From: an archaeon
Lineage (GTDB): Archaea > Nanobdellota > Nanobdellia > Pacearchaeales > GW2011-AR1
DNA: 64,000 nucleotides
Assembly: GCA_021107855.1 (NCBI GenBank)
Contig: JAIORZ010000006.1
Coordinates: 32,480 to 96,479, forward strand
Direction of reading: 5' to 3'
Both the position numbers and the translations under genes were made by a program. Positions within the stretch are counted from its first letter, which is position 1. Each line of letters starts with the position of its first letter. The notes beneath the pieces were generated by a model, which was given only the letters and a program-made list of their open reading frames with translations, did no database searches and had not been told where the DNA came from. This document shows positions 14,541-47,944 of the stretch, in pieces.

Positions 14541-14981
14541 ATGAAAGAGAGAGGTTTGATTGGTATGATTATTTTGGGGATGTTTGGATTTTTGTTGATT
14601 GTTGGAATTGGGGCTGGGATTTATTTTTACAATTTTCATGTGTTTAAGGAAATTCGGATTTGTGTTGGGGAGGGTGAGAATACTATGTTCCCTTGTAATA
14701 CTCAGGAAGATTGTGTTAATGTAATGAGGGAGGCTGACTTGGATTTTAGTGTTTTAGATGGGGCTCCGGATTTTGTGGTGAAGAATTTTAATGATATTTT
14801 AGAGAGTGCCGTTTATTGTGAGGAGAGTTGTTTTGTTGGGAATGTGCGTGGGATTGATTATGAGAGTGGGGAGATTGAGGGATTGGAGAGTTGTTTAGAT
14901 GGGGAGGAGGAGTTTGTTATGGAAATTCGGGGGAAGGAAGGGGTTGAGATTTTGAAGTGGATGAAGGATAATAAAGATTAA
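14541..14981 (+). CDS. N-terminally membrane-anchored Cys-containing protein, unknown function
   Basis: TM helix LIGMIILGMFGFLLIVGIGAGIYFY followed by a soluble domain with 7 Cys. Confidence 0.45.
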   Translation: MKERGLIGMIILGMFGFLLIVGIGAGIYFYNFHVFKEIRICVGEGENTMFPCNTQEDCVNVMREADLDFSVLDGAPDFVVKNFNDILESAVYCEESCFVGNVRGIDYESGEIEGLESCLDGEEEFVMEIRGKEGVEILKWMKDNKD

Positions 14982-15958
14982 GATTCGGCTGCCTGTGTTG
15001 CTCCGAATACGATGTTTCCTGTGCATGTTCCGGCGACTCCTGTTGGAACGTAGATTCTCCAGTATGTTGGTTTGATTGTGTCGTCTGTCGTGTCGTCTGT
15101 TCTTGAGGTTAGGTTGAATTGTTTGACTGCTGGGGTCGTGGTTAGGTTTGTGTAGTTTGCTTGGAACTGGGTGAAATTGAGTTGACCTGGAGCTGATGTT
15201 GTTAGGTTGTATTTTTCTAAGTCGACGGAGATATTTTTTGATGCGCCTAAGGTGCAGTTCATTGCGTTGCCGTCGTTCGGATTTGCTCCATATCCTTCTA
15301 GTGAAAGGTTGGCTTTTACGTTCCCGTAATTTGTGATATTAATTGTCTGTTCGTTTGAGACTGATGTTGCATTTATTAGTCCGTAGCTAATCCAGTCTGG
15401 GAGTCCGAGAGAGAGGAGTGGCGAAATTGTTCCTTGTTTTGTTCCTGTCCCTATGCCGCCCTCTGTGTCGTTTGCTTGTATTGTGCAGTTCCAGCTTCCC
15501 GCGTTTGCATAATATAATATTTGGAATGTGCAATTTGCCAGGGCGCTTTCTCCGTCGTCATTAAATCCATTAAATGAAATAAATGATGTGTTTATATGAC
15601 AAGATGAGTTTGTGTAGTGGTTGTTGTTATCGTCTGGGTTTGATTGTGGGATGGATGAGTCGAAAAATGTCGCGTTGGCCGCTGTTATGTCGGCTTCTCC
15701 GTTGTAGTCTACAATGACCGCTACGCACTCGACGAGTGTTGTTGAATTTGGAGTTAGGGTTATGTCTACACCTCCGTTGATTGACATATTGTGTATTTCT
15801 GGGGCTGTGTTCCCGACTGTTAATTCGGATGTTGTGTTTGTATTGGGGGAACCTATTCCTGCTAAGACTTCTTGTGGTGCGAAGGAGAAGAGTGCCAATA
15901 ATAGTAGCACTTCTAAGATTATTAGCGTGATTCCCGTTAATGGATTTTCATTTTTCAT
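14978..15958 (-). CDS. secreted/surface protein, family A paralog 1 (C-terminal motif YWRIYVPxGVAGTCxGxIxFGATQAAxS)
   Basis: N-terminal hydrophobic leader with an embedded Glu (GITLIILEVLLLLALF), N-x-S/T-rich body, conserved C-terminus shared with 16470-17462 and 47945-49114. Confidence 0.6.
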   Translation of the reverse strand: MKNENPLTGITLIILEVLLLLALFSFAPQEVLAGIGSPNTNTTSELTVGNTAPEIHNMSINGGVDITLTPNSTTLVECVAVIVDYNGEADITAANATFFDSSIPQSNPDDNNNHYTNSSCHINTSFISFNGFNDDGESALANCTFQILYYANAGSWNCTIQANDTEGGIGTGTKQGTISPLLSLGLPDWISYGLINATSVSNEQTINITNYGNVKANLSLEGYGANPNDGNAMNCTLGASKNISVDLEKYNLTTSAPGQLNFTQFQANYTNLTTTPAVKQFNLTSRTDDTTDDTIKPTYWRIYVPTGVAGTCTGNIVFGATQAAES

Positions 15959-16151
15959 TTTTGATTATGGCTTTCCAGTAGATTTTAGTTCGGCCTTTTT
16001 TCTCGAGCCATCCCTTTTCATGCATTTCTTCGAGATATTTCTCTGTGGTGTTCCAGGATATTTTTGTGGCTTTTGATATCTCGGTTGTGTTTTGATATTT
16101 AGGATTTTTGATTAGTGTGATTAGGATTTGGGTTTCGTATGGATTTAGCAT
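15948..16151 (-). CDS. small winged-helix DNA-binding protein
   Basis: 67 aa, ETQILITLIKNPKYQNTTEISKATKISWNTTEKYLEEMHEKGWLEKK is a typical wHTH recognition helix plus wing. Confidence 0.5.
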   Translation of the reverse strand: MLNPYETQILITLIKNPKYQNTTEISKATKISWNTTEKYLEEMHEKGWLEKKGRTKIYWKAIIKNEK

Positions 16152-16152
16152 T

Positions 16153-16368
16153 TTAAATTTGGTATGTTAGTGTTTTAGTTTTTGGATTATATTTCACTTT
16201 CAATTTCTGACCCTTTGCTAATTCGAGTTCTCGTCTGATTTCGGCTGGGACTGGGAGTTTGATTTGGTGTTTTTCGACGATTGCGGTTACGGAAATTTTG
16301 TTTTCGGATTTCTCAATTATTTTGATGTTGAGTTCTTTTAGAATTTCTTGGGGAATTCCTTTCTTCAT
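16153..16368 (-). CDS. SpoVT/AbrB-like (swapped-hairpin) small DNA-binding protein
   Basis: IKLPVPAEIRRELELAKGQKLKVKYNPKTKTLTY matches the AbrB/MazE pattern (..iPk.iR..l.l..Gd.v.v....g.l.l). Confidence 0.55.
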   Translation of the reverse strand: MKKGIPQEILKELNIKIIEKSENKISVTAIVEKHQIKLPVPAEIRRELELAKGQKLKVKYNPKTKTLTYQI

Positions 16369-16469
16369 ATCTTTAGACTAATTTTACATTATATAAAGCT
16401 TTCGTAGTCCTTATAATTTTAGACTAAGATTACATTAAAAAAATATTGAGTGAAAATGATGGTATAAAA

Positions 16470-17462
16470 TTAACTTGCGGCTGCTTGTGTTGCACCAAAT
16501 ATTATTGATCCATTGCATGTCCCGGCGACTCCTTTTGGAACGTAGATTCTCCAGTAAGCTTCCTTGATTGCTTCATTTACTGTGTCATTTGTTCGGTAGT
16601 CTAGTTCGAATCGTCTGATTGGGGGAGCACCGCTTGTTAGATTTGTATAGTTTCCTGCGAGTTGAGCTAGGGTGAATTGTCCTGGGTTTGGTGTAGTTAG
16701 ATTATACTTTTCATGTTCTATGGCTATTGTCCCTATATTTCCCAATGTGCAGACCATTGCCAAGTTGTCGTCCTCTACTGCTCCATATCCTTCTAGCGAG
16801 AGGTTGACTTGCACATTTCCGTAATTTGTAACGTTTGTTGTGTTTTCATTTGAGACTTCTGTTGCGTTGACTATCCCGTAGTTGATTGTGTCGGGGAGTC
16901 CGAGTGAAAGAAGTGGGGAAATTGTTATGACGTCTGTGTTTTCTCCCATCCATCCGACTGTATCATTTACTGTTACATGGCAAATCCAATCTTCCGCGTT
17001 CGCGTAGTATTCTACTTGGAATGTGCAATTTGCTAACGAGAGGTAGGGGTCGTCTGTGTAACCATTATACCCCCCTGTGTCTGCATCAATTACGCAAGAT
17101 GAGTTTGTGTAATGATAGTTATTGTCGTCTGAATCTCCTGATGAGGAGGCTACTGAATCATAGAATGTTGCGTTGACCGCTACGATGTCGGCGTCACCGT
17201 TGTAATCTCTTAGGATTGCCATACATTGGACTAATGTTGTGGCATTTGGGGTTAGGATTAGAGAGGCTGCGTCGTCGTCGATACTTACGTTAATTACTTC
17301 AGGGTATGTATTCCCAACGGTTAAATTCGTGAGTACTGTTGCATCAGGGGTTCCTATTTCTGCGATTACCGACGAGGGGACGAAGGAGAAAAATGCTAAG
17401 AGAAGTGAAATTTCTAAGAAAATTAGTCCAATCCCTATTGCTGTCTTATTTTTTGTTTTCAT
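16470..17462 (-). CDS. secreted/surface protein, family A paralog 2
   Basis: N-terminus MKTKNKTAIGIGLIFLEISLLLAFF, C-terminus YWRIYVPKGVAGTCNGSIIFGATQAAAS; alignable with 14978-15958 over its full length. Confidence 0.6.
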   Translation of the reverse strand: MKTKNKTAIGIGLIFLEISLLLAFFSFVPSSVIAEIGTPDATVLTNLTVGNTYPEVINVSIDDDAASLILTPNATTLVQCMAILRDYNGDADIVAVNATFYDSVASSSGDSDDNNYHYTNSSCVIDADTGGYNGYTDDPYLSLANCTFQVEYYANAEDWICHVTVNDTVGWMGENTDVITISPLLSLGLPDTINYGIVNATEVSNENTTNVTNYGNVQVNLSLEGYGAVEDDNLAMVCTLGNIGTIAIEHEKYNLTTPNPGQFTLAQLAGNYTNLTSGAPPIRRFELDYRTNDTVNEAIKEAYWRIYVPKGVAGTCNGSIIFGATQAAAS

Positions 17463-17468
17463 GTTTCA

Positions 17469-18233
17469 TTATCCTAGTTCCACGTATATGTAATATGCAG
17501 TTGTTCCTGTGTTTGTTTCATTCCCGTTTTCCGGGACAATCATTTGAAAATCATATGTGGCTCCGTCATAACCTTGTTCGTCTGCTTCTAAGACTGTTGC
17601 AAATACTATGTCTGTGTTTGTGGAATCGTAAAGAATGACTTCTTCGAATTTGGTATCTGTGACATTATTTACATATGTGTTTGTTGCGGAACAGGTGTTT
17701 GTTGTAATTGTGGTTCCTGCAACTAGAAAAGTTTCGGCGTTGCTAGCGGGAGTAAAAGTTGATGTGATGTTGTCTTCGCCTGTCTGTTCCATGGCTACAT
17801 CTTCTGCTGTTATTTGTGCTGCGTTTGCGCATCCTATTGTGGTCCATTCAATTGTTGCGGAGGCTCTTGTTGCATAGACCTCTCCTGTAACTGTGCTCAT
17901 TGTCCAATCATAAATTGTCGAGCCTGTGGAATCGTCTAGTGTGAATTTCCCTTCTAACTGCCCCACGAATGCTTTCCAATGCGGATTTTGAGATGTTGCT
18001 GTTATGTTAAATTTTGAAATATATCCTCCAGAAATATTAACCATTTGACCTCCAGTAGCAATTCCTGTTGTATTTGAGACATGTGTGATTGCACTTGGTC
18101 CGGTTGGGATTGCGATTGCTAGGGTGGATAAAAATATTAGGGATAAAAGAATCACACTAATTACTATCGTTTTCTCTTTCATTGCTTGTTTCTTGGGTAT
18201 TCCCATTCTTCTCTTTCTTGTAGATTTTTGCAC
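17469..18233 (-). CDS. secreted protein, family B (YYFYVELE family) divergent member
   Basis: Signal peptide, then ...DSTGSTIYDWTMSTVTGEVYAT...TTAYYIYVELG; shares the family's conserved core and C-terminal motif. Confidence 0.55.
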   Translation of the reverse strand: MQKSTRKRRMGIPKKQAMKEKTIVISVILLSLIFLSTLAIAIPTGPSAITHVSNTTGIATGGQMVNISGGYISKFNITATSQNPHWKAFVGQLEGKFTLDDSTGSTIYDWTMSTVTGEVYATRASATIEWTTIGCANAAQITAEDVAMEQTGEDNITSTFTPASNAETFLVAGTTITTNTCSATNTYVNNVTDTKFEEVILYDSTNTDIVFATVLEADEQGYDGATYDFQMIVPENGNETNTGTTAYYIYVELG

Positions 18234-18276: not shown

Positions 18277-19005
18277 TTACTCTAACTCTACGTAAAAGTA
18301 GTAGGTAGTTGTAGCTGTATTTGTTCCATGTCCGTCTTCTAGAACTAGCATTTCGAAATCGTGATATGCATTATCAAAGCCCGCGACGTCTTCTTCGTCT
18401 AAGATTGATGTGAAGATAACTTGCGTGTCTGCGCTTGAATCGGTTAGTAAAACTTCTTCGAAATTGTTATCCACGCTTGCTCCTGTACTATCATATATGC
18501 TTGTACTTGCGCAATCTCCTGCTACAAATTGCACGTTATTTGTAAAAAATTCGTCATGAGTCCCAGCGTCGGAAAATGTTTCATTGACTCCGTCGACATC
18601 GTCTGAGCTAATGTTGAATAATGTTTCAAGCGCGGAATGGTTTCCTGCTAAATCGAAACATGCAATATTTACCCATGCTACTGATGTATCTGTGGTTGCG
18701 TAAATTTCACCTTCAGGAGAAGCTAGTGTCCAGTTATACATTTGATTATCTGAAGCGTCTGCCAATTGAATTGTACCTGTTACGTTACCAAAATAACCTT
18801 GCCAAGACTGAGTTATTGAAAAACCAGAAACTGTTAATTCTGTTACATTCCCTGCTAGTGCTTCATGGTCTTGCGCTAGATCCATTGGAGCTCGTTCAGT
18901 CTTCACTTCTGTATAATTTGCACCAAACGGCTGAACGGCCATAACGTTTACTGCTAGAAACATCGTTAGAATTAATACCAATAATGTTAGTGCTTTTGTG
19001 TTCAT
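18277..19005 (-). CDS. secreted protein, family B (C-terminal TTYYFYVELE motif)
   Basis: Signal peptide MNTKALTLLVLILTMFLAVNVMA; ALAGNVTELTVSGFSITQSWQGYFGNVTGTIQLADASDNQMYNWTLASPEGEIYAT; ends TTTYYFYVELE. Confidence 0.65.
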   Translation of the reverse strand: MNTKALTLLVLILTMFLAVNVMAVQPFGANYTEVKTERAPMDLAQDHEALAGNVTELTVSGFSITQSWQGYFGNVTGTIQLADASDNQMYNWTLASPEGEIYATTDTSVAWVNIACFDLAGNHSALETLFNISSDDVDGVNETFSDAGTHDEFFTNNVQFVAGDCASTSIYDSTGASVDNNFEEVLLTDSSADTQVIFTSILDEEDVAGFDNAYHDFEMLVLEDGHGTNTATTTYYFYVELE

Positions 19006-19159: not shown

Positions 19160-19693
19160 ATGGAAATCAACGTTTTGTCGGGATTATTGGATGATAAGTT
19201 GATTAAAATTATTTCGTTGTTTATGAAATATCCCGATAAACGGTTTTCTATGAGTGAGGTTTCGAAGCTCAGTGGGATTAATGGGGCGACGACTTTTAGG
19301 ACTTTGAATAAACTTGTGACGGAGAATTTGATACGGGCGACGGTTATAGGGAAGACGCGGAGTTATCAGTTGTCGCAAGGTGAGAGGACGTCGTTATTGG
19401 TTCGGCTTTTGAAGAAGGATAAGGTTAATGTTTTGGATATTTTCTGTGAGAAGGTTAAGGAGTTGCCTAGGGTTAAGACGGTTTTGTTAGATTCGAATAA
19501 CGTGGACGGGGCTAAGGTTATTATTGTTGGGGATTATCCGTCGAAGGATAGAGTTGAAAAAATTTGTGAGGATATTCAGAGTGATAGGAAGTTTAAGATT
19601 GATTTTGTGGAGTTGACGCCGAAGCAGTATTTGGATTTGAGGAAGTTTGGCACTATTCCTTCGGGGAAGCGGATTTTGTTTACTCGGGCCTAG
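19160..19693 (+). CDS. winged-helix transcription regulator with C-terminal domain
   Basis: N-terminal wHTH (FSMSEVSKLSGINGATTFRTLNKLVTENLI); convergent with the giant gene, 4-nt overlap. Confidence 0.5.
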   Translation: MEINVLSGLLDDKLIKIISLFMKYPDKRFSMSEVSKLSGINGATTFRTLNKLVTENLIRATVIGKTRSYQLSQGERTSLLVRLLKKDKVNVLDIFCEKVKELPRVKTVLLDSNNVDGAKVIIVGDYPSKDRVEKICEDIQSDRKFKIDFVELTPKQYLDLRKFGTIPSGKRILFTRA

Positions 19694-22600
19694 GTTATTT
19701 CCATGTAGAATGCGACGGATGTTTGGGTGGCGGCATGGTATTCCCTGAGTTTTGCTGGAACTCTGAGTTCATAGTCCGTTACCTCGTATGAGCCTGCGGT
19801 GTCTTTGGAAATTCTTGTTACGAAGATTATGTCTTCTTTTTCGGTTGTGTCGTATTCGGAATCTGTGTCGTCGCTGTAGTCCCAGAGGATTCCTGTCTTG
19901 AATGATGAGGAGTTGATTGATGTTGTTACTGGAATGTATGGAATGTGTTTTCCGAATATTGTGAGGTTTTGGGTTTCGTTAATCTCTCCTGCGTTTAGGT
20001 AAAGAGCTTCTAGTGAGTCGGGAAATTGCGTCGAGCCTAGAATTGTGTCGATTTCTTGAATATCATTAGTTGAATTTGCGCCGGATGGTTTCTTGCCGAT
20101 TGCTTGTAGTGTCGTCCAATCTACGTTTGAGTCGTAGTCAGCGACGTAGATTTTGGAGTTTAGTAGACCTGTTTCGTTCCATGTGACTATTTTTGCTTCT
20201 ATTGAATCTGCGAGTTTGAGTTCGCTGTCTGGATTTATATCGCCGTAGAATAGATGCCAACTTGAGATAGTTATGGTCTTGTTTGCTTTGTTGTTTGTTT
20301 CTAAGTTTTCTGTGATTAAATCAGCTGGGTCTACTTTTACAAATATTTGCGTTGCTCCTATTTCTGCATCCCATACGACGGATGCGTTGCTGAAATTTAG
20401 TGCTGAGACTGAGATGGTTTGCGTGCTCCCAATTTGTGTTCCTGTTGTGTCTGGGTCGCCTGAGTAGAATTCGACTTGAACTGATGTGGCGTTAATTAGT
20501 GCTAGGTTGTGGACCGTTGCTGTTATCGTTATGGTTTCGCCTTCTGTTGGAGTTGTTGAGTTGAAGAATATTTGGCTTTGGTTGATTTGGAGGTCTGGGT
20601 ATGTTCGGTTGAAGACGTAGGTTAGGGATGTGTTTGTATTTCCTAGTGTGTCCCAGCATGTTACGTTCCAGAAATGTTGTCCGATGGAAAGTCCTGAGAC
20701 TGATTCTAGTTTTGAGAATCCTGATGTTACTAGGACATTGTCTTCTTCTACATTGCCATCGACGGTTAGGTTACAGGTTAGTAGTGTATCGAGTGCATCC
20801 GTCGCTGTCCAGTTGAAATCGGTGTCTACATCGTTTGCATCAACGCCGGTGTTATTGGGGGGTGAGTTTAGTTGAATTAATGGAGGACTTAAATCTCTTG
20901 AGAAATTTCTATATACGCTCATATTAATATTTGAATCTGTATCTGTACATTCAACGCTCCAATTATGTTTTCCTTCTAGAATTCCTGAAACTGTAAAATT
21001 ATTTATTATATTTTTTATGACTCCTGAGTCGGTTTGGTTTAATTTGTTGTCAATATATATGCTACAATTTACTAGTCCTAGTGCGTCAACTGGTGTGTAG
21101 CTAAAATTAATTGTTGAGTTTGTTGTTAGTATATCATTTGCTGGGCTGTCTAGGTATATTTTTGGTGGCGCGTAAACGGTAAAATTATATATTATGCTAC
21201 TGTTGTAGTTTCCGGCATCGTCTACGCAGGTTGTATTCCAGTTGTGTGCTCCGTCTACTAATAAAATTGGAACAATGTTTGTGCCGTTTATTAGCTCTCC
21301 TGTGAATTCAACGTCTCCGTCTACACTTAAATTGCAAGAGATGGAATCGTCTAGATTTTCTGTGATATTAAATGTGAATGTTACATTGTTATCACCTACG
21401 GTCGCACCTTCTGGCGGGTATATGAAATCTACTTGGGGGGCAGTAGTGTCTACATAGATTTCCCACGTTTCGCTTTCTCCGACCATTAAGGTAATATCTG
21501 TTACGTTGACACTCCAGTTGTATTTTCCGTCTGCTAGCGTTACTTCAAAATAATTATTTGCCCCACTTGTGACTATGGTTTGGTTTGTCATATAGACAGA
21601 ATTGTTAATAATTAATTCCGTTTTGGAAAATCCTTGGTCGTCTTGTGGAAAGTAAGTAAAATTGAAATTGGATGTGTTCACCCAGGAAGCATTTGGTGGA
21701 GAGATGAGAGAGATTCCTGGGGCAGTATACTTTGTGAAATTAAATACTGAAGTTGTGTTTATGTTTGAGGCATTGTCCCAACAGGTTACGTTCCATTCTC
21801 TATATCCGTCCAAGATTCCTGAGATATTTCTGGAAGCGTTCGTTGCATTGGCTAATGCAAAATTTGCATCTACTACTACAGAATCGATAGTCAAGTTACA
21901 AACTAAAAATTCGCTTATTTCATCAATGGCTTCAAATTCGAAGGTTACATTGGAAGTGTATACGTCAATTCCGAGTGGATAATAGGCAATAATATCTGGG
22001 GCATTGTTGTCGATGAACATGACGTTTTCCTCGCTGTAAGCGGCTAGTCCGTAGCTGTCAGAACAATTTACATAATAAGTGTATCTTCCGTCTGCTAATC
22101 CTTCTATTTCGAGATTGTTTACAGAGCCAAGAGATATCCCGGAGCTGACTGTTTCATTTGCTACTCCATTTAGATAGGCTGTGCAAAAATCTATGTCGGT
22201 ATTGTCATAAGGTGTGAATTGAATTGTGAATGAGTTCCCTTGATGGTAAGTCATGTTGCTGTTGTTTAAAAATACCGTGGGAGGTTCTTCTATGGTCACT
22301 AATCTTGTTTCGCTGATTCCGGAGTAACCTGAATCATCCGTGCAATTTACGTACCAGTAAGTTGCTCCATCGTCTAATAGGGAAGAATTCTGGGAGGTTA
22401 TCGCTCCTGAGGTCGCTGAGAGATTTGAATCTATAGAATTATTCACATAAATACTGCAATTTAAATTTGAATCAATTGCATCTGTGACATTAAATTGGAA
22501 GTTTACGATTCCGGATGAAGATGTGCTTTCGTTGTCTGGGTTTACTAGGACAATAGAAGGAGCGTTTAGGTCAACTCCAAAGGTTCTATTCGCAGTTGCG

Positions 22601-25600
22601 TTTGAAGTTAAACTTAAATCATAACAGGTGATGCTCCAATTATAATATCCTTCTGCAAATCCTGAAATTATAAAGAAGTTATTTACTCCGAGATTTATTG
22701 AGTCGTTTGTTTCATTTATTGCTCCATTTATTAATAAATCACAGTGGTCCATTCCTGAAGCATCGTCGGGTAGATATGTGAAATTCATGGTTCCGTCGGT
22801 GTCAATGTAGTTGTCTTCGGGGGAGACTAGGCTTACTGTTGGTGGAGTGTCTGTAATGGTGAATCTCCATGTTTCGCTAGTTGTGCTTCTTGATGATTCG
22901 TCGTAACAAGTGACGTTCCAATAGTGTGCTCCGCCACCTATCGCTCCGGAAGATACGTTTGTTTCGGTGTTGTTTAATGCAGGAACTCCTGTGTGGATTG
23001 TTGATCCGTCTAAAACAATGTCGCAAGATAAATTGCCGTCCATATTGTCGGTAGGTTTGAAGCTTAGATTTATTACTCCAACGGAATGATCTGAATTGTT
23101 TGGTGGGAAAATTAGAGTAACCTCTGGGTTTTCTAAGTCAACATAAAATTCCCAAGTTTCGCTTTGATTAGTTTCGGAGACGTCGGATAAATTGACACTC
23201 CAATTGTAGGTTCCAGAACTTAATCCGGTGATTGTGAAATTATTATTTCCTGAAGAAATTACACTTGCGTTTGTTGCGTTATAAATTCCGTTTAAAATTA
23301 ATGTAGCATTTGTAAAATCTCCGTTTGGGTCTGTTGCGTTGTAAGTTAAATTCCAGCTGCTGCTGTTAATCCAGGTTGTATTTGTTGGGCTGACTAAATT
23401 AACTTGAGGTGCTACGCCTGATTGAACGTTTAATGTGCTTTGGGCATTTGCGTTAGCTGTTTTATATCCACTTGTGACATTTACATCATAACTTCCGAAG
23501 ACACTTGTAGAATTAAAGCTATAATTGAAGAAACCTGTTGAATCTGTGAAGGCTCCGGTATAATTGAATGTTAATTCTTGTAGTTGAGGACTGTAGGTGG
23601 AATTGAATGCTCCCATTTCAATTTTATATTCTAGGTATCTGGATATATTAAGGTCGTCTGTGATGTTTTCGCCATTTGAAATTTCTGTCCAGTCGGTCCA
23701 ACTAATTTTGTCATTTGATGTTCTAATATAGATTAAAACTCCTGTGCAATCACTGGAACTAAAACTTACTGATAATTTTGGTCTGTCAGCTTGGGTTGTA
23801 TATTCTCTGCTTCTGAAAAGAACATTCCCAGAACCTATGGGATGAATTGCAAATCCGTTATTGCTAAGAGTTCTATCTGTCCATCTTTGAACGGTTGATG
23901 TAACTCCTAAGGATTTTGTTCCGGTTGAGGCTGTGCTCATGTATCCTAGGGAAGTTGTATTTATGGAAGGGGAACTTGCAAATCCTGCAGAACTCCATAA
24001 ATCGTCGCTGGTTCTGTATAGATAAGTTACTTCTTCTTCGTTCCAGCTTTGTAATAGTTCATAAAAATTAGGATTGTCTCCTGTGTCATAAACCGTCAGA
24101 CTTAAATTGGCACTGCTAATTGTGGAATTGTAGGGAATCTTATTTAGTCCATAGCCTGTAATATCCTTGAATTTTATGAGGGATCGTTCTGTGTCTGGTG
24201 AGGAGTCGACTGTGAGGAAGGCATCTGTCCCATAGTTTGTATTTTGGTTTGCGCTTGTGACATACGAGTCTTCTGTGCTAGAGTAAGAATTAGAATCTCC
24301 ATCTTGATAACTGATTGTTCCGGAGCATGGCTTTGCTACGGTGCTCCAAACAACGGTGTCCCAATTAACCTTTGCTCCAGCGTCTAAAATTCCGGAAAAA
24401 TTACCGGAAGTGTTTGTTCCGTCAAGTGTAAATTCTCCTCCTGAGTATGTAACATTATTATAGTCGGATAAGATTTCAATCTCATCTTCTGTAAAATTCA
24501 ATGCATTTTCGGAGGAACCTTGATTTGTTAAATTTTCGAGGGGGATGAATGTTCCATTAAACCAGAAGTTGATTGCATTTTTCGGGATTGCTGTTCCGTT
24601 TGATAAATTGAGATAACCTGTCATGAAAATATCTTCTTCTCCTATCGTTGTAGAGGGGTTTAGGTTTAGGTTTAAAATTAAATTTAGGATGTCAAAAGTT
24701 CCGTTATAGGAGTCTTCAAGTCCAGTTGTGTCGTTTGCATAAATTGTGTAATTATAGCTTCCATTAAAGCTTTCGTCTGTTTCTATTATGCCGCTCCAGA
24801 GGTCTCCGAAAATGTTGCTTAGGAAGATTATTGCTTTTTGAACACCCCCGATTGCGCCTTCCCAAATTATGACCCAGACACTATCTGTGCTGCTATCGCT
24901 GACGTTGACATTTATTGTTAGGTTCTCTCCTTCGTATAAGGGATTTGTGGAATTTACGATTTCTCCATCCTCATTTGTTTGGTTGATAAAAGTAATGTTT
25001 GGGGCTGAGGTGTCCACTGTGAATTCTACGCTTTTTATTCCTAAAGCTCCGGAGGTATCATTAGCATATATGAACCAGGTGTTGTTTCCGTCTACTGATG
25101 TGATTCCGGTTATATTTTGGTTACAAGTCATTGTGGTGTTGGTTTCTCCAAGGTTTAAGCTGTACCAACAAGTGTCGAGGGTTACTCCGGTTGCATGGGT
25201 GATGCTATAATTCATTTCTATTACTTGTGTGTTGTAAATATAGGTTTCCGGATAGAGGATGGTAATTGTCGGAGGAGATTCCCATGTGATGTTTAAGTCA
25301 TTAAGGGAAATATTTATGGCGCTGTCTGCAGAATATAGGACTCTGTATAAGAGATTTGAGCCAGGAGTGAATCCTGTTAAGTTGCCGCCGTTGGTAATTG
25401 TGTTCCAGTTCGCTCCGTTATCTACGCTAATTTGGACAGTGATATTATTTGTTGCATTTGTTCCTGTTTCTGCCCAGCCTGTGTATGAGATACTATTTAT
25501 TCCTTGTGATGCATTCATGACATGCGAAGTGAAATTCGCGGTTCCGCCTGAAATTACATCTCTAACATCCATTGTATCAACTCCATACATTAAATTTTCC

Positions 25601-28600
25601 GCAGCAGGAGACAGCCCGGACCAATTTTCATTTCCACTGTAATCAACTCCGCTTGCAGAATAAACCATTGTTGAAGCTGGGCTTAAATAGCTGATAGCGT
25701 TATTTGTTCCGTCGACATAAAAAGAAACCAAATAATCTTTAGAGGAATCGATGCTTAAATTTAACCAATCTGTATATTGTGAACTAGAGGCGGAAATTAT
25801 ATAACTAGTTGCTCCTCCGAATTCTAAAGCGGTCCAGGTTCCTCCGACGCAATCACTTGTTGACCCACTTCTTTCGCAAATAGTTGGATTATTGATTCCT
25901 AAAGAGCCGTCTGTTCCCGAAATGAATTTAATTCTTACAGAATCTCCGCTAGTGTTAATGGAACTAGATTGTAAAATATTTCTGTATGAATATGTGCTTC
26001 TTCCGCTATTTGCCCAAGTGCCATCCCCTGTTTGGTCGTTTGCGTCCCAAGAAATAACAGGGGAGCTTTCAGAAGTGGAAGCGTAGAAGGTCATATTTTC
26101 TCCGTCCCAAATTATACTATTTGTTTCTCTAATTGAAGAATTATCATCAAAAGTATCATAATAATATTTGTCAAAATCTACATCAAAACTGGTGCTATTA
26201 GAGGATGTGTCTCCTACTGAATTGTTTGCATAAAAGGTAATTGTTTGCGAGCTGCCTTCTTCTAAGATTATGGGGAAAATCCAACTTCCTTCGCAGTTTT
26301 TACAAATAGTTTCATTGGCTCCTCCATTAATGGACATTATTAAAGCTGCCGCACTCGAATTAAGTGTGACGTTAATAATGGGGGTGAAATCTTGCTCTAT
26401 TGGGGTTGTAATTCCTTCAATATGGATTCCTGGCGGGGGGTTTATTGTCGTCGACCAAGAAATGTTTAAATCCAATAATGAAAGATATGATAAATCTTCT
26501 ATATCAAAAAATACTCTATAAATGAAATCATCTCCTGTTGTGATAGATGTTAGTCCTGAATTTTTTGTAGCTTCATACCAATGAACACCGTCGTTTGCAC
26601 TTACTTCAATGGTTAAAGAATTATTTGCGTTGCTGTTTGCTTCGTTCCAGGTGATATTTGTAAATTTGGTTATATCGTCGGTTAAATCTACAGAATAGGA
26701 AGTGAAAGATCCGCTTTTTCTACCTCCAGTAATAATTCCTGCAAAATCGTCATGCCTGGCTTCGTCATTTAAATCGTTATAAATTCCTACTTTCCCCTCG
26801 GGATAATAGACATCTGTGGCTTGAGTTGCTAAGACTCCGTCGACATAACAGGAGACAGTGTGGTTTTTTATTTCTAATTTCATCTCGGTCCAAGTACTTA
26901 ATGAATAAGATGTCCCGTCGCTTGTTGTGGAAATGGTGGTTTCTCCGCCATTCGAAACTTCGACAATTTCTGCGTCTATTGGAGCTTGTTGTCGCACTTG
27001 GCATCTATAATAATTTGAGGAATTTTCATATCCAAAAACAAAACCTGAGTAGTCATTATCTGTAGAATATAAATCGTAAGTAAAATTATAATCTGTATCA
27101 TTGTCCATTGTGAATGAATTATAATATGCGATTGCGTCATTTGCATTTTGAGTTTGTCTCAATTCTCCGGAAATTGTTTGCCATTGTCCTCCAATTAAAG
27201 ACCACTCTTGTGAATCTGTAAAATCTTCGTTGATTACTGTGTCTTGGCTTAATTTGAGAGTTATATTCCCATTTAAAGCTTCTATCTCATCTGAGGTATA
27301 AACATAAGAAGAATCATTGAATGAATCATAATAATTATTGTTCATATTTACTGTGAAGGAAACGCTTTCGTGATTTTCTTCTCCCATCGGATTTCTGACA
27401 TAGACATTGACTGTATAGCTAGCTTCTCTTAAGTATAGGACTTCATCACTAGAGCCATTGCAGTTTGTGCAAAGAGTTTCATTTGCTCCGCCGTCTATAT
27501 TGTACCATAGGCTGCTGGCGGGACCAGTTAAATTAATATCTAAAACTGGAGTTGCGTCATTAATGTCTCCAGAAGTTGGATATGAAATTGTGATATTTGG
27601 AAGTTCTTGGTCAACTGAAATTGTGACATTCCAGATATCTGTTATGTCTGAATTAGAAAGATTGGATGTTGAGTTTGCAAAAGCAAAGAAATAATATTTC
27701 GAGTCTAGTTCTCCTGTTGCGTTTACAAAGAATGTAAAAATTTGGCTTTCTCCTTCATTTAGATAACTTGAAGTCAGGGGGTTTGAAGAGGCGTTTGTAT
27801 AGAATGGAGAGCCGGAGCCTACTGGGATAATTCCTTTATTCATGCTTGGGGTTTCGGTTGTGAAATTAACTGAATCTATATACCACCCTTCTCTTGTAAC
27901 GCTGTCGTCTGCGAAGAAATGGAATCTAAAGGTTACATTTTCTCCTGTAAAATTTGAGATATTGGCTATAACGTGTGCAAAAGATCCTGAAGATCCAATA
28001 TATCCATCGCCCCAGATGGCTTCACCATCAACTAAATCAGGTCCTCCGTTATAGTCATTATAATTTGCGTTATATCCTCCGGAAATAAAATTATCAAACT
28101 TTTTCCAGGAACCAGTTTCGTTAATTCTATATTCTAAAAGTCCCCCGTCATAACCGTTATTTTCTACGTACATATAATGATAGAAATCGAATGTGTGGTT
28201 ACCATCTTCTAAATCGTAGGTGGGAGTTACTAGAATTGAATCTGAATAAATCAAATAATTTCCAGATCCGGTGTCTCCGCATTTCCATGCTTGACTTCCA
28301 TTGTGTGTGCTCTCCGTGCTTATATGCCATTGGTCTTCTTTTTCATTTAAAGCAAAGTGTTCGAATCCTTCTGTGCCTGTTTCGAAATCGTTGTAAGTTT
28401 CTACTATTGGGTCTAGGGTCACATTAATTGTTCCACAATTTCCCTGGGTACATGTTAGATTTAAAGTTACATTAAAAAATTCATATTGTTCAACGTAGAC
28501 ATTTGAGGAAGTTGGCCATAAAACTTCTAAACTAATTTCGGGCTCTCCGAGATAGGTTTGGATTCTTAACTCTGAACTATTTGCCCAAGGTGAAAAGAAT

Positions 28601-35560: not shown

Positions 35561-36271
35561 TTATTCTAGTTCTATGTAAAAGAAATAGGTCGTTGTGGAT
35601 GTGTCTCCACTGTGTCCATCTTCTAATACTAGCATTTCGAAGTCATGGCTTGCACTATCGAAACCTAATAGATCCTCTTCTAGCAAAGCTGCAAAAACAG
35701 TATTTGTTCCGTCGTATAATAGTACTTCGTCGAAATTGCCGGCTACACTTGCTCCGGTGCTGTCGAAAATTTGTGTACTCATACATTCATCGGCAGTGAA
35801 GCTTGTGCTTCCAACTACGAATGCGTCATGTGTTTTTGAGTCACTAAAAGTCTCATTAATACCATCAATCGAGTCGTTGATATTATAAGTAGTTTCTAAT
35901 GCTGTTCCATCAGCTGTCCAATTGAAGCATTCTATGCTTGCCCATGTTGGAGATGCTATTGAGGCGAAAACTTCTCCGCTTGGAGATGCTAAAGACCAGT
36001 TATACATTGGGTTTCCCGATGCGTCTGCTAGTCGGATTGCTCCTGAAACATTACCGAAGTAACCTTGCCAAGACTGGGTAATTGAACTACCTGAAATTGT
36101 CAGCTCTGTTACGTTTCCTGCATATGCTGAGTGGTTTGCTGCAGTGTCTGCGGGGGCTCTTGTGCTTGCTCCCGGGGTAACTGTTCCTGCTCCGTTTGGG
36201 TCTGCGAGAACTAATCCGAAACTTAAAACTAGTAATATCGTCACTAATATAAAAGAGTGTATTTTATTCAT
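35561..36271 (-). CDS. secreted protein, family B (TTTYFFYIELE C-terminus)
   Basis: Signal peptide; AGNVTELTISGSSITQSWQGYFGNVSGAIRLADASGNPMYNWSLASPSGEVFAS... Confidence 0.65.
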   Translation of the reverse strand: MNKIHSFILVTILLVLSFGLVLADPNGAGTVTPGASTRAPADTAANHSAYAGNVTELTISGSSITQSWQGYFGNVSGAIRLADASGNPMYNWSLASPSGEVFASIASPTWASIECFNWTADGTALETTYNINDSIDGINETFSDSKTHDAFVVGSTSFTADECMSTQIFDSTGASVAGNFDEVLLYDGTNTVFAALLEEDLLGFDSASHDFEMLVLEDGHSGDTSTTTYFFYIELE

Positions 36272-37043: not shown

Positions 37044-37829
37044 TTACTCTAGTTCTACATAAAAGTAATATGTTGTTGTGGATGTGTCTGTCCCGTGTCC
37101 ATCTTCTAGGACTAGCATTTCGAAGTCGTGGGTTCTCCCATCAAAACCTAAAACATCTTCGTCGATTAAAGAGGTGAAAATTACGCTTTGAGTTGTTGGT
37201 TCATAGAGTAAGACTTCTTCGAATTTGTCGTTTTCTCCCATTCCTGCGTTGCTGAATACTCTTGTGCTTCGGCATTCACCTTCTGAGAACTCAAAATTGC
37301 TTGTGTAAAATAAATCGTGTGTACCTGCTCCCAATAAGGTGAATGTTTCGTTTATCCCGTCTACGTCGTCGGGTTCTATCCCGAAAAGTGCTTCTAGTTG
37401 TGTTAGATTCGTTCCATGTTGTGATGTTGTCCCGCCATTTCCAGATTCATCGGATAGAGTTCCGTCGGACGAGTAGTTTAGACACTGGATATTTTCCCAT
37501 GAGATTGAGGAGCTTGTAGACGCGTAGATTTCACCCTCTGGGGAGGCTAGTGTCCAGTTGTACATTTGGTTGTCATCAGCATCTGCCAATTGTATTGTAC
37601 CTGTTACGTTACCGAAATAACCTTGCCATGATTGGGTTGTCGAGAATCCGTTGATGTTTATTTCGGTTACGTTTCCGGCTAGGGCCTCGATTGATTCGGC
37701 GGCGTCTGGCGTTGCTCTTGTTGAACTGACTTCGGTGTAATTTGCTCCGAATGGTTGGACTGCCAGAACTAGGGAGACTTGGAAAATTATTAGTGAGAGT
37801 ATAATTAATTTAATATGTTGTAACGTCAT
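37044..37829 (-). CDS. secreted protein, family B (TTTYYFYVELE C-terminus)
   Basis: Signal peptide LSLIIFQVSLVLA|VQPFGANYTEV, identical mature N-terminus to 18277-19005. Confidence 0.65.
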   Translation of the reverse strand: MTLQHIKLIILSLIIFQVSLVLAVQPFGANYTEVSSTRATPDAAESIEALAGNVTEININGFSTTQSWQGYFGNVTGTIQLADADDNQMYNWTLASPEGEIYASTSSSISWENIQCLNYSSDGTLSDESGNGGTTSQHGTNLTQLEALFGIEPDDVDGINETFTLLGAGTHDLFYTSNFEFSEGECRSTRVFSNAGMGENDKFEEVLLYEPTTQSVIFTSLIDEDVLGFDGRTHDFEMLVLEDGHGTDTSTTTYYFYVELE

Positions 37830-38680: not shown

Positions 38681-38994
38681 TTTATTTCCTCTTCTATTTC
38701 TTTAATGAGTTTTTGGAGCATTTTATAATCTCGTTTTTTGTATGTTGATTTAAAAATTTTGATTTTGGATGGTAATAATATCAATTTTGATTCCGCAATC
38801 ATCGCCTTTCTTTTTTCAATTTCCCGCACTTTAGACTCTAATTCTAAGAGTTTTAGGTCTAATTTTGAAGCTACGAGATATTTTAAACTTTCTGTTTTGT
38901 CCTCGTAGTTTTGTAATTTTCGGACTTTTTTATAATGTTTTTTATCTATAATCTTTTTAGAGATTCTTCTTATTTTTTTGAATTCTTTTTTCAT
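38665..38994 (-). CDS. small basic coiled-coil protein (109 aa)
   Basis: K/R-rich N-terminus, LKLLELESKVREIEKRKAMIAESK helix; start overlaps the ATPase stop. Confidence 0.4.
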   Translation of the reverse strand: MKKEFKKIRRISKKIIDKKHYKKVRKLQNYEDKTESLKYLVASKLDLKLLELESKVREIEKRKAMIAESKLILLPSKIKIFKSTYKKRDYKMLQKLIKEIEEEIKCLIS

Positions 38995-43751: not shown

Positions 43752-44370
43752 GATGAGTGAAATTGACGATAATTATGTGCAGAGGGGAGAGGATTCTGAT
43801 TTGAAATTTTTTGAGGAGATGAAAAATGGGGCGGAGAGGAAGGTGGCTGTTGAGAAATTTTTGGGAAGGTCTGGTAAGTCTCGGAGGGAATTTGAGGCGG
43901 ATTATGCGAAATTTTTGCGGAAGGAAAAGAGGAGGGTTTCGATTGTGAAAAAAAAGAAGGACAAAAAGGTTAAGTTTGATAGGTTGAAGGCGTGGCATTT
44001 TGATTTTAGGTTTGGGTTTTTTGAGAGGAAGAAGATGAAGGTTGATGTTTTGTGGTTTAATTTCGTGAGGAAATTTTGGAAGTATTGGAATCTGATTATT
44101 CCGAAATGGGCATTTTATGTTTATTATAAAGTTACTGGTTTTATTAAGAATGTTTTTGTCGAGACGAAAGATTTTATTTGGGATGCGACTTTTTGGGCAA
44201 AGGATTTTGTTATGGGGGTTTTGGGTGGAGCTTGGTTTTTGATGAAGAAAGGTTATCGTATGCTTTCTGTTGTTCTTGGAAAGATTATGTTTTGGAGGAA
44301 GAAGAAAGTTGTGGTGGAGGGTGAGGGAGATAAGGAGAAAAAGGGAGAGGGAGATAAGGAAGGGGATTAG
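43687..44370 (+). CDS. hypothetical basic, aromatic-rich protein
   Basis: ORF only; K/F/W-rich; ends with GEGDKEKKGEGDKEGD repeats. Confidence 0.3.
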   Translation: MTMWSLLRMMFLVMIATVIVIKMSEIDDNYVQRGEDSDLKFFEEMKNGAERKVAVEKFLGRSGKSRREFEADYAKFLRKEKRRVSIVKKKKDKKVKFDRLKAWHFDFRFGFFERKKMKVDVLWFNFVRKFWKYWNLIIPKWAFYVYYKVTGFIKNVFVETKDFIWDATFWAKDFVMGVLGGAWFLMKKGYRMLSVVLGKIMFWRKKKVVVEGEGDKEKKGEGDKEGD

Positions 44371-47934: not shown

Positions 47935-47944
47935 TTTATATTTA

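What the first reader, a model, noticed from the sequence alone, without database searches (positions are those of the whole stretch)
14978..17462. Three-copy surface-protein family (family A) with a pilin-like N-terminal leader and a conserved Cys-containing C-terminus, repeatedly preceded by AbrB-like genes
14978-15958, 16470-17462 and 47945-49114 encode 326-389-aa proteins ending in YWR[IV]YVP..VA.[TS]C.G.I.[FL]GA. Two of them start with a short charged N-region, a Gly, then a long hydrophobic stretch containing a Glu (KTAIG|IGLIFLEISLLLAFF; PLTG|ITLIILEVLLLL). This resembles class III (type IV pilin/archaellin-like) signal peptides, but a Sec signal is an equally valid reading. Two of the three genes are immediately preceded by an AbrB-like gene (16153-16368; unannotated 49104-49268). 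The third copy heads a five-gene minus-strand operon (AbrB-like, family A, 404-aa beta-sandwich protein, 683-aa FN3/TM protein, 102-aa secreted protein; 44367-49268).
Basis: partly seen in the sequence, partly recalled or inferred. Interest (0 to 1): 0.55.

Follow-up and report, generated by a model that had tools for sequence, protein, structure and literature searches.

The report
DPANN secreted surface module, not pilin
The three genes encode a real, uncharacterised family of secreted, sugar-coated, two-domain surface proteins of tiny DPANN archaea; they are exported by the ordinary secretion route rather than as pilins, and belong to a conserved multi-gene set that probably builds the cell's outer attachment structure.

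Summary
14978-15958, 16470-17462 and 47945-49114 are three paralogs (58% and 42% identity) and the only copies in the window. The pilin reading does not hold. None of the three has a [charged][G/A/S] site before the hydrophobic domain. The Gly is present in only 17 of 52 relatives. A Pro-x2-V-x-A|G site after the hydrophobic domain is nearly invariant.

The roughly 280-aa module is two beta-sandwiches (AF2 pLDDT 91), with six conserved Cys and 17-19 N-glycosylation sequons. It has no Pfam, NCBIfam or PDB relative. It is always the C-terminal end of its protein (140 of 140 representatives). About 40% of representatives carry N-terminal cargo, such as lectin or Ig domains, up to 5,000 aa, behind ordinary Sec leaders.

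Context matters more than the leader. Type-1 copies directly follow two genes of a second family, "B", in 51 of 60 loci. The window's two loci are halves of one conserved gene set: AbrB, B, A1, A2, p404, p683 and p102. B-like domains also end the upstream giant adhesin-like proteins. A B-like domain also forms the ectodomain of a HerA-like membrane ATPase.

Best reading: a Sec-exported adaptor or structural subunit of a DPANN-specific surface assembly. AbrB-like genes head its operons.

The parts
16470..17462 (-). Family A, type-1 copy (330 aa): leader, 20-aa conserved extended segment, then two beta-sandwich domains. It is the last gene of the B-B-A operon.
17361..17462 (-). Leader of the 330-aa copy (residues 1-34): basic n-region, roughly 20-aa h-region with conserved Glu17, Pro29, and V32-I-A34|E/G predicted SPase I site.
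   Evidence: column counts; rule tests; conservation
16491..16556 (-). Conserved C-terminal motif YWRIYVPKGVAGTCNGSIIFGA (residues 303-324), modelled as the last beta-hairpin of domain 2. Only about 6 residues follow it.
14978..15958 (-). Family A, second type-1 copy (326 aa). It is the third gene of the operon abrB-wHTH-A.
   Evidence: The same order occurs in L006, L011 and L015.
15948..16151 (-). 67-aa winged-helix (TrmB/HTH_24-type) regulator lying between the AbrB-like gene and the 326-aa copy.
   Evidence: PF13412, 30 bits, above the cut-off; orthologs in 4 loci
16153..16368 (-). 71-aa AbrB-like gene. It heads the abrB-wHTH-A operon. A TATA-like box and an oligo-T run lie in the 101-nt spacer after the 330-aa copy.
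17469..18233 (-). Family B paralog (254 aa), 6 nt upstream of the 330-aa A gene.
18277..19005 (-). Family B paralog (242 aa), first gene of the B-B-A operon. A GGAGG ribosome-binding site and a TATA-like box lie upstream.
19160..19693 (+). 177-aa HTH protein transcribed divergently from B-B-A. It is conserved at this position in 16 loci.
19690..30696 (-). 3,668-aa giant secreted protein upstream of B-B-A. Its last 190 aa or so are a divergent B-like domain.
   Evidence: The window copy is weak (domain E 0.035). The ortholog C-terminal profile against B gives hhalign probability 96.8%, E 2e-10.
47945..49114 (-). Family A, type-2 copy (389 aa): ordinary short Sec leader, an extra N-terminal domain of about 100 aa, then the A module.
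49104..49268 (-). 54-aa AbrB-like gene overlapping the start of the type-2 A gene by 11 nt.
46720..47934 (-). p404: Sec leader, Ig-like ectodomains (weak ASH, CARDB and DUF7507 hits), then a C-terminal TM helix with a basic tail. It is a conserved partner gene.
44672..46723 (-). p683: Sec leader, ectodomain, TM helix near the C-terminus, and a cytoplasmic tail. It is a conserved partner gene.
44367..44675 (-). p102: small secreted protein. It is a conserved partner gene, found next to type-2 A in most loci.
37044..37829 (-). Third family-B paralog (261 aa), in a second B cluster.
35561..36271 (-). Fourth family-B paralog (236 aa).
38991..42635 (-). 1,214-aa membrane protein: TM helix, B-like ectodomain (residues 60-246), CarboxypepD_reg domains, a second TM helix, then a cytoplasmic HerA/DUF87 ATPase.
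   Evidence: hhalign against B: probability 98.1%, E 1e-13.

Best explanation
Family A is a Sec-exported extracellular glycoprotein module, not a pilin.

Shown: (1) The leader has an n-h-c layout with a conserved V-x-A|G site after the hydrophobic domain. (2) The mature part is a conserved 20-aa extended segment followed by two beta-sandwich domains, with six conserved cysteines and 17-19 N-glycosylation sequons. (3) The module is always the C-terminal end of the protein, either alone or behind variable cargo (lectin domains, Ig domains, giant proteins). (4) It is encoded in a conserved gene set with family B, p404, p683, p102 and an AbrB-like gene.

Inferred: (1) Signal peptidase I removes the leader. 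(2) The A module acts as a docking or adaptor subunit. It joins itself, or the cargo fused to it, to a surface assembly whose main building block is the B domain. B occurs as free secreted subunits, as the C-terminal end of the giant adhesin-like protein, and as the ectodomain of a HerA-like membrane ATPase. (3) The membrane-anchored Ig proteins p404 and p683 hold or assemble the complex. (4) The AbrB-like protein, together with a winged-helix protein in one operon, is the operon's own transcriptional regulator.
For: Family and fold:
- Three paralogs and 348 close homologs, all annotated as hypothetical. A profile search finds 1,665 clusters at 50% identity.
- The AF2 model has pLDDT 91, with helix 2-26, an unstructured stretch 27-54, and two beta-sandwiches.
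- The best PDB matches are tandem Ig proteins (CfaE, FimH, CsuE, integrin calf domains, RbmA), but only at TM 0.2-0.37.
- Each copy has 17-19 sequons against 5-8 expected, six conserved Cys and pI about 4.

Leader:
- -3 is V in 43 of 52. -1 is A in 44 of 52 or G in 7 of 52. +1 is G in 39 of 52. Pro sits at -6 in 34 of 52.
- 189 of 191 stand-alone members have small residues at -3 and -1 after the h-region.
- Extended members carry ordinary Sec leaders.

C-terminal rule:
- 140 of 140 representatives have 9 or fewer residues after the module. 50 of 131 have N-terminal additions of 30 to more than 4,000 aa, some of them Laminin_G_3.

Context:
- B lies directly upstream of type-1 A in 51 of 60 loci.
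- The merged cluster B-B-(B)-A1-p404-p683-p102-A2 occurs in L044, L059, L023, L068, L082 and L088. The order abrB-p102-A2-(A1)-p404-p683 occurs in 13 or more loci.
- Full synteny is kept in a genome whose ortholog is 60% identical.
- The giant C-terminus matches B at hhalign 96.8%, E 2e-10. The HerA-like ectodomain matches B at 98.1%, E 1e-13.
- The AbrB profile hits 5itj and 2l66 at E 4e-6.
Against: - No signal-peptide predictor could be run, so cleavage is inferred from rules only.
- The h-region is long (about 20 aa, median 21 in the family) and as conserved as domain 1 (0.58 against 0.59), with Glu in 45 of 52. The B leader is far less conserved (0.36). That degree of conservation is unusual for a leader that is discarded, and it suggests the helix may be retained.
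- No physical A-B contact was tested, because there was no multimer modelling and no coordinates.
- A and B are not homologous, and no A-B fusion exists among 150 representatives.
- The loci used for the statistics were the 78 best matches in one collection, so they over-represent close relatives.
Confidence: 0.55

Rival explanations
1. Uncleaved signal-anchor. The hydrophobic N-terminal helix stays in the membrane. Type-1 A would then be a type II membrane protein that tethers the secreted B structure to the cell, through its short conserved linker and two Ig domains.
For: - The h-region is about 20-22 aa and predicted helical at pLDDT up to 91.
- It is as conserved as the folded domain 1 and carries a near-invariant Glu in the Pace/Woesearchaeota clade, whereas the B leader is not conserved.
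- Free B proteins have no anchor of their own.
- A is the last gene of the B-B-A operon.
Against: - The V-x-A|G motif after a helix-breaking Pro is the most conserved part of the leader region and fits SPase I.
- Leaders of other secreted proteins in this genome have h-regions up to about 18 aa, so 20 aa is not far outside the range.
- Type-2 and cargo-bearing members have short, ordinary leaders and no TM helix, so anchoring is not a property of the module.
- More distant family members lack the Glu.
Confidence: 0.2
2. Type IV pilin-like protein. A prepilin peptidase cuts after the Gly in front of the hydrophobic helix, and the helix forms the core of a pilus.
For: - In two copies a short basic N-terminus, a Gly and a long hydrophobic helix precede a beta-sandwich. 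This is superficially the layout of archaeal pilins.
- The conserved helix with an acidic residue recalls pilin H-domains.
Against: - The window copies have I or T at -2 where archaeal peptidases need a charged residue (PMC4371748).
- Gly10 is present in 17 of 52 relatives, and many have no G/A/S there at all.
- A strict motif at the start of the h-region occurs in 16 of 191 members. A very permissive one occurs in 53 of 191, including about 12 spurious 'LEA|' sites, and shows no positional conservation.
- Glu would sit at +7, not +5.
- Pro29 and an unstructured 25-aa stretch separate the helix from the fold.
- The module sits at the C-terminus of long Sec proteins.
- No PilB, PilC or peptidase A24 gene was found among the window ORFs scanned.
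Confidence: 0.03
3. Terminator or adaptor subunit of a strand-exchange fibre. B subunits polymerise by donating their conserved, unstructured N-terminal segment. The giant protein, whose C-terminal B-like domain lacks that segment, is the tip. A donates its conserved 20-aa N-terminal segment to the last B and ends or anchors the fibre.
For: - The mature N-termini of B (residues 24-56) and A (35-54) are highly conserved but modelled as unstructured or at low pLDDT.
- The giant's B-like domain aligns only from B residue 65 onward.
- Gene order is giant-B-B-A.
- PDB fold matches for A include tip adhesins of chaperone-usher pili.
- p404 members give weak ASH (PapD-like clan) hits: 10 of 15, best E 3e-5.
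Against: - No multimer model or coordinates were available, so an open groove was not shown.
- The A segment is retained in type-2 and cargo-bearing members, where it is internal. It may therefore simply be the first strand of domain 1.
- In the giant, a preceding CARDB-like strand may fill the same place.
- B has no fold match to TasA, AbpA, thread or usher pilins.
- The B model is only pLDDT 70.
Confidence: 0.12
4. Independent soluble or loosely bound binding protein, such as a glycan-binding or host-binding factor. It would have no structural link to B, and the gene linkage would reflect co-regulation only.
For: - The tandem Ig fold is generic.
- Some members carry lectin domains.
- There is no detectable A-B homology or fusion.
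Against: - The 6-8-nt B-to-A spacing is kept across Pacearchaeota, Woesearchaeota and Nanoarchaeota in 51 of 60 loci.
- The gene set stays together under repeated rearrangement.
- The strict C-terminal placement of the module fits an attachment role better than a ligand-binding one.
Confidence: 0.1

Closest known systems
Archaeal type IV pilins and other class III signal-peptide proteins (PibD/FlaK substrates)
   Same: A short basic N-terminus and a long hydrophobic helix followed by a beta-sandwich. An extracellular, N-glycosylated, multi-copy family.
   Different: There is no charged -2 and G/A/S -1 site before the H-domain, and the Gly is not conserved. An SPase-I-type V-x-A|G site follows the H-domain. 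The helix is separated from the fold by Pro and 25 unstructured residues. The module also occurs at the C-terminus of long Sec proteins. No pilus machinery lies nearby.
Two-domain tip adhesins of chaperone-usher pili (CfaE 3f83 and 6k73, FimH 1kiu, CsuE 6fjy)
   Same: These are among the best Foldseek PDB matches. They have tandem beta-sandwich architecture. They follow the same logic of a shared C-terminal assembly domain carrying variable N-terminal cargo. They are encoded beside the major subunits.
   Different: TM-scores are only 0.29-0.37 and identity is 12% or less. There is no sequence relation. There is no chaperone or usher, and the organism is a monoderm archaeon. Strand exchange was not demonstrated.
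Two-component archaeal S-layers such as Sulfolobales SlaA/SlaB (comparison from general knowledge, not tested here)
   Same: An operon of secreted, heavily glycosylated envelope proteins in which a second beta-sandwich-rich subunit connects the main lattice protein to the membrane.
   Different: The SlaB anchor is a C-terminal TM helix with a coiled coil. No sequence or fold similarity was found or tested. The proteins here are much smaller, and B-like domains are shared with giant proteins and an ATPase.
Gram-positive Csc/WxL cell-surface complexes (comparison from general knowledge)
   Same: A gene cluster in which several proteins of very different length share one C-terminal non-covalent attachment module. 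It also encodes a membrane-anchored Ig-like partner and a small extra protein. Homologs of p404 give weak WxLIP_HBD hits (2 of 15 members, best E 0.0035).
   Different: A gives no WxL Pfam hit. These archaea have no peptidoglycan. The WxLIP hits are far below threshold and are outnumbered by generic Ig hits.
AbrB/SpoVT swapped-hairpin regulators (for the small upstream genes)
   Same: The ortholog profile hits archaeal AbrB-family structures 5itj and 2l66 (E 4e-6) and SpoVT and AbrB. 12 of 14 members hit PF04014.
   Different: The window copies alone fall just under the Pfam cut-off. There is no toxin partner. DNA binding was not tested.

Membership tests
Type IV pilin / class III signal peptide protein | Processing site with G/A/S at -1 and a charged residue at -2, placed before the hydrophobic domain (criteria as stated in PMC4371748) | tested here: not met
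   The window copies read AIG|IG and LTG|IT, and the third copy has no site. Criteria are quoted.
Type IV pilin / class III signal peptide protein | The processing site is conserved across the family | tested here: not met
   Gly is present in 17 of 52 at that column, and the -2 column is I/T/R/L/K mixed. The strict motif occurs in 16 of 191. The permissive motif occurs in 53 of 191 at scattered positions.
Type IV pilin / class III signal peptide protein | The N-terminal hydrophobic helix is an integral, universal part of the mature protein | tested here: not met
   The module occurs without that helix in the type-2 copy. It also occurs at the C-terminus of 50 of 131 representatives with other N-termini. 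The helix ends at Pro29 and is followed by an unstructured stretch.
Type IV pilin / class III signal peptide protein | Genomic presence of a prepilin peptidase and PilB/PilC-type assembly genes | tested here: inconclusive
   None was found among the window ORFs scanned against Pfam. The rest of the genome could not be examined.
Sec substrate with SPase I signal peptide | Tripartite n-h-c leader with small residues at -3 and -1 after the hydrophobic domain | tested here: met
   V 43/52 at -3. A 44/52 or G 7/52 at -1. Pro at -6 in 34/52. 189 of 191 pass the rule. This was a rule-based test only, because no trained predictor was available.
Sec substrate with SPase I signal peptide | Actual cleavage of the leader | not testable with these tools
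   This needs N-terminal sequencing or proteomics. The unusually conserved h-region leaves a retained anchor possible.
Donor-strand (chaperone-usher, TasA/AbpA, thread-type) fibre subunits | Sequence or fold relation to a known strand-exchange subunit | tested here: not met
   Profile searches of A and B against all PDB sequences found nothing at E up to 10. Foldseek for A gave only generic tandem Ig matches at TM 0.37 or less. Foldseek for B gave nothing at E up to 0.001.
Donor-strand (chaperone-usher, TasA/AbpA, thread-type) fibre subunits | An incomplete fold with an open groove that is filled by a neighbour's terminal strand | not testable with these tools
   No multimer prediction and no model coordinates were available. 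There is only indirect support: conserved but unstructured N-terminal segments.
AbrB/SpoVT-domain regulators (small upstream genes) | Swapped-hairpin AbrB domain detectable by profile | tested here: met
   Ortholog profile against PDB: 5itj, 2l66 and 5itm at E about 4e-6, and SpoVT at 8e-5. 12 of 14 members hit PF04014. The single window sequences score 23.5 and 22.2 bits against a cut-off of 24.7.
Any curated protein family (Pfam-A, NCBIfam) for family A | A hit at or near the curated threshold | tested here: not met
   No Pfam family at E up to 1 for the two type-1 copies, and only a chance Lsr2 hit for the third. No NCBIfam hit.

The most novel reading that the evidence does not exclude
The gene set (AbrB, B x2-4, A1, A2, p404, p683, p102, plus the giant protein ending in a B-like domain and the HerA-like membrane ATPase with a B-like ectodomain) may encode a previously undescribed surface organelle. 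It would be specific to Pacearchaeales, Woesearchaeales and related Nanoarchaeota. In this reading it is a B-domain polymer, a fibre or a lattice. Giant adhesins are plugged in through a shared B domain. The polymer is seated on an ATPase-bearing membrane platform. A modules act as terminator or adaptor subunits, possibly by strand exchange, and the conserved Glu-containing helix of type-1 A acts as the membrane tether. This would be the host-attachment apparatus of these uncultured ectosymbionts.
Probability: 0.25. Interest if true: 0.8.

Novelty: new variant of a known kind. Interest (0 to 1): 0.5.

Why it matters
Pacearchaeota and Woesearchaeota are abundant, uncultured, ultra-small archaea thought to live attached to hosts. 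How they build their envelope and hold on to a host is unknown. This family has no Pfam, NCBIfam or PDB relative, yet it has more than 1,600 sequence clusters and a strictly conserved gene neighbourhood. It therefore marks a lineage-wide surface system.

Recognising it as a Sec-type C-terminal module rather than a pilin has three consequences. It prevents mis-annotation as type IV pili. It links the giant adhesin-like genes to defined small partners. It gives concrete targets (A, B, p404, p683 and the HerA-like ATPase) for multimer modelling, metaproteomics and cryo-ET.

Tried and rejected
- Pfam and NCBIfam scans of A and B found nothing usable.
- PDB sequence-profile searches with A and B found nothing.
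- Foldseek of the A model against the PDB and BFVD gave only generic tandem Ig matches at low TM.
- Foldseek of the B model gave nothing.
- A-versus-B homology was rejected (hhalign probability 12%), despite the similar-looking terminal strands YWRIYVP and YYFYVELE.
- An A-B fusion search found none.
- A C-terminal sorting signal (PGF-CTERM or sortase-like) was considered and rejected. The C-terminal motif is modelled at pLDDT 96-97 as part of the last beta-hairpin, and no TM helix follows it.
- TasA/AbpA-type matrix fibres were considered and rejected for lack of any sequence or fold match.
- A mobile-element origin was considered and rejected. The recombinase-like fragment next to the locus is syntenic beside rpS9/rpL13 in several genomes.
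- The WxL/Csc analogy for p404 rests on two sub-threshold hits only, so it is kept as an analogy.
- Literature searches for DPANN, Pacearchaeota or Woesearchaeota surface, pilin or S-layer proteins found no description of these families.

Full report
**1. Observation**

The three minus-strand ORFs 14978-15958 (326 aa), 16470-17462 (330 aa) and 47945-49114 (389 aa) are present as described. They align over the shared region at 58% and 42% identity. They share about 100 invariant positions, including the terminal YWR[IV]YVP..VA..C.G.I..GA.

A profile built from 52 family members finds exactly these three among all six-frame ORFs of the window (E 1e-161, 2e-153, 5e-104). It finds nothing in the two giant ORFs.

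The window comes from a DPANN archaeon. The 330-aa protein is identical to NCBI 'hypothetical protein K8R30_02725 [archaeon]', and its relatives are labelled Pacearchaeota, Woesearchaeota or Nanoarchaeota.

Both small ORFs are AbrB-like. Each is just under the PF04014 cut-off on its own. A 14-sequence ortholog profile hits archaeal AbrB structures 5itj and 2l66 at E 4e-6.

One detail differs from the finding. Between the 71-aa AbrB-like gene and the 326-aa copy lies a 67-aa winged-helix gene (15948-16151).

**2. The protein**

There is no Pfam, NCBIfam or PDB sequence relative. The family is nevertheless large: 348 close homologs and 1,665 clusters at 50% identity by exhaustive profile search.

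The AlphaFold2 model has mean pLDDT 91. It shows an N-terminal helix (residues 2-26), an unstructured stretch (27-54) and two beta-sandwich domains. The conserved C-terminal motif forms the last hairpin.

Foldseek against the PDB and BFVD returns only generic tandem Ig proteins at TM 0.2-0.37. These include CfaE, FimH, CsuE, integrin calf domains and RbmA.

Six cysteines are conserved. Each copy carries 17-19 N-x-S/T sequons against 5-8 expected, and pI is about 4. These are the properties of an extracellular, glycosylated, disulfide-bonded protein.

**3. Leader: class III or Sec?**

The published criteria are G/A/S at -1, a charged residue at -2 (critical in archaea), and a site preceding the H-domain (PMC4371748).

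- None of the three window proteins has such a site.
- Among 191 stand-alone members, a strict motif at the start of the h-region occurs in 16.
- A very permissive motif occurs in 53, at scattered positions, and about 12 of those are spurious sites at the internal Glu.

By contrast the segment after the hydrophobic domain is nearly invariant: Pro (34/52), x2, V (43/52), x, A (44/52) or G (7/52), then G (39/52), [VI], G (49/52). This is an SPase I (-3, -1) site.

Members with N-terminal extensions have plain Sec leaders such as ...VSA|A...VQA|A and ...SSA|H. So does the window's third copy.

No PilB, PilC or prepilin-peptidase gene is among the window ORFs scanned. The rest of the genome could not be checked.

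The h-region is about 20 aa long and as conserved as folded domain 1 (0.58 against 0.59). It carries Glu in 45 of 52 sequences. The family-B leader is far less conserved (0.36). A retained signal-anchor therefore cannot be excluded. I rate it at about 0.2, against about 0.03 for class III processing.

**4. A strict architectural rule**

In 140 of 140 representative proteins whose match reaches the end of the profile, 9 or fewer residues follow the module. Of 131 representatives, 81 are stand-alone and 50 carry N-terminal additions of 30 to more than 4,000 residues. Some additions are Laminin_G_3 lectin domains. Total lengths reach 4,139 and 5,014 aa. So A is a C-terminal module behind variable cargo. 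That is the pattern of an attachment or assembly domain.

**5. Neighbourhood**

I called ORFs in 89 loci: the window, 10 loci from exact-protein look-ups and 78 from GTDB species genomes. I then searched them with profiles.

- Type-1 A (about 320-335 aa) lies directly downstream of a second family, B, in 51 of 60 cases. There are usually two B genes, with a 6-8-nt B-to-A spacing.
- In the window these B genes are 18277-19005 and 17469-18233 (29% identical to each other).
- B has 1,142 homologs, is more conserved than A, and has no Pfam, NCBIfam or PDB relative.
- The order giant - HTH (divergent) - B - B - A - abrB - wHTH - A, next to rpS9/rpL13, is kept in a genome whose ortholog is 60% identical.
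- Type-2 A (about 390-405 aa, like the window's third copy) travels with p404, p683 and p102. An AbrB-like gene heads the operon in 13 of 25 cases.
- In L044, L059, L023, L068, L082 and L088 both halves are fused into one cluster, for example HTH<-|B-B-B-A1-p404-p683-p102-A2.

The window's two loci are therefore parts of one conserved gene set. AbrB-like genes head operons that start with B as well as with A (L023, L048, L068, L082).

Direct reading of the spacers supports the transcription units B-B-A | abrB-wHTH-A. An oligo-T run and a TATA-like box lie between the 330-aa copy and abrB. A GGAGG ribosome-binding site lies before the first B gene.

**6. B domains elsewhere**

The giant proteins encoded upstream of B-B-A end in a divergent B-like domain. 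HMM hits of E 2e-8 to 1e-5 occur in 12 or more loci, always at the extreme C-terminus. A profile of 14 giant C-termini against B gives hhalign probability 96.8%, E 2e-10, covering B residues 65-242. The window's own giant (19690-30696) is a weak individual hit, but it is part of that alignment.

The window's 1,214-aa HerA/DUF87 membrane ATPase (38991-42635) has a B-like ectodomain at residues 60-246. hhalign gives probability 98.1%, E 1e-13. It sits in a second cluster with two more B paralogs, 37044-37829 and 35561-36271.

So the B domain occurs in three forms: as a free secreted subunit, as the C-terminal end of giant adhesin-like proteins, and as part of a membrane ATPase. This points to a B-based supramolecular structure that these proteins join.

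**7. Mechanism**

Shown:
- Sec-type leader features.
- A glycoprotein with a tandem beta-sandwich fold.
- The C-terminal-module rule.
- The conserved gene set.
- Sharing of the B domain among free subunits, giant proteins and the ATPase.
- The AbrB fold of the small upstream genes.

Inferred:
- SPase I cleavage of the leader.
- A acts as an adaptor or structural subunit that docks itself or fused cargo onto the B-based assembly.
- p404 and p683, which have C-terminal TM anchors, serve as membrane partners.
- The AbrB-like protein (with the wHTH protein in one operon) is the operon regulator.

Whether the assembly is a lattice or a fibre is open. A strand-exchange fibre is attractive for three reasons. 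The mature N-terminal segments of A and B are conserved but unstructured. The giant's B domain lacks the N-terminal segment. Homologs of p404 give weak ASH hits.

**8. Comparison and novelty**

The family is not a type IV pilin, because the defining features were tested and not met. It resembles chaperone-usher tip adhesins in fold class and in cargo-plus-assembly-domain logic only. Two-component S-layers and Gram-positive WxL/Csc complexes are functional analogies recalled from general knowledge, not tested memberships. Literature searches found no description of these families.

I classify the finding as a new variant of a known kind, namely Sec-exported archaeal surface glycoprotein modules. 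There is about a 25% chance that the whole gene set is an undescribed DPANN attachment organelle.

**Caveats**
- No trained signal-peptide predictor was available.
- Only monomer models were made, and the B model is only pLDDT 70.
- The locus statistics come from the best-matching 78 loci and from longest-ORF gene calls.
- All functional statements are in silico.

Noticed in passing
window 18277-19005, 17469-18233, 37044-37829, 35561-36271 (all minus strand): There are four paralogs of a second uncharacterised secreted family, 'B' (236-261 aa). The mature N-terminus VQPFGANYT is conserved, and the proteins end exactly in YYFYVEL[EG]. The family has 1,142 homologs, is more conserved than A, has no Pfam, NCBIfam or PDB relative, and has no fold match (the model is pLDDT 70).
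   Followed up: partly
window 19690-30696 (-); orthologs in L003, L006, L012, L030, L031, L036, L045, L050 and others: The giant (3,668-aa) secreted protein upstream of B-B-A ends in a divergent B-like domain that lacks B's N-terminal segment (hhalign probability 96.8%, E 2e-10 for the ortholog profile). The second giant (52093-63882) has a different C-terminus.
   Followed up: partly
window 38991-42635 (-): This 1,214-aa membrane protein has a cytoplasmic HerA/DUF87 ATPase, CarboxypepD_reg domains and an N-terminal ectodomain homologous to family B (hhalign probability 98.1%, E 1e-13). It is followed by a 109-aa and a 284-aa coiled-coil protein (38665-38994, 37826-38680) and then by B paralogs. 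It may be an assembly or anchoring platform.
   Followed up: partly
window 34425-35477 (-): A 350-aa polytopic membrane protein with an HELGH (HExxH-type) motif and no Pfam hit lies immediately downstream of the fourth B paralog. It may be a membrane metalloprotease.
   Followed up: no
window 17361-17462 (leader of the 330-aa copy) and alignment A2: The hydrophobic leader segment of type-1 A is as conserved as the folded domain and carries a near-invariant Glu (LIFLE) in the Pace/Woesearchaeota clade. The leader of B is not conserved. This is unexplained if the leader is simply cleaved and discarded.
   Followed up: partly
window 36264-36896 (-), 19160-19693 (+), 15948-16151 (-): Three further HTH regulators are embedded in or beside the B and A clusters: a MarR-like gene between two B paralogs, a 177-aa divergent HTH gene conserved in 16 loci, and a 67-aa TrmB-like wHTH gene.
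   Followed up: partly
window 13960-14523 (-): A 187-aa protein with only a weak 'Recombinase' domain fragment lies between rpS9 and the A locus. It is syntenic in several genomes (L001, L003, L006), so it is probably not an active mobile-element gene.
   Followed up: partly
window 49355-50158 (-), 50198-52108 (-): A SpoIIM-family membrane protein and a 636-aa secreted protein lie between the second giant gene and the abrB-A2 operon. Homologs of the 636-aa protein occur in only 4 of the loci examined.
   Followed up: no
L077, L080, L078, L087, L075, L073, L069, L067, L026, L084 (proteins of about 620-637 aa downstream of p683): Proteins of about 625 aa encoded after the abrB-p102-A2-p404-p683 operon carry a weak C-terminal B-like domain (E 2e-5 to 0.2). 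This again links the A2 operon to the B domain.
   Followed up: no
window 5280-7702 (+): Two tandem MacB/FtsX-type permease genes (404 and 403 aa). They appear unrelated to the finding.
   Followed up: no
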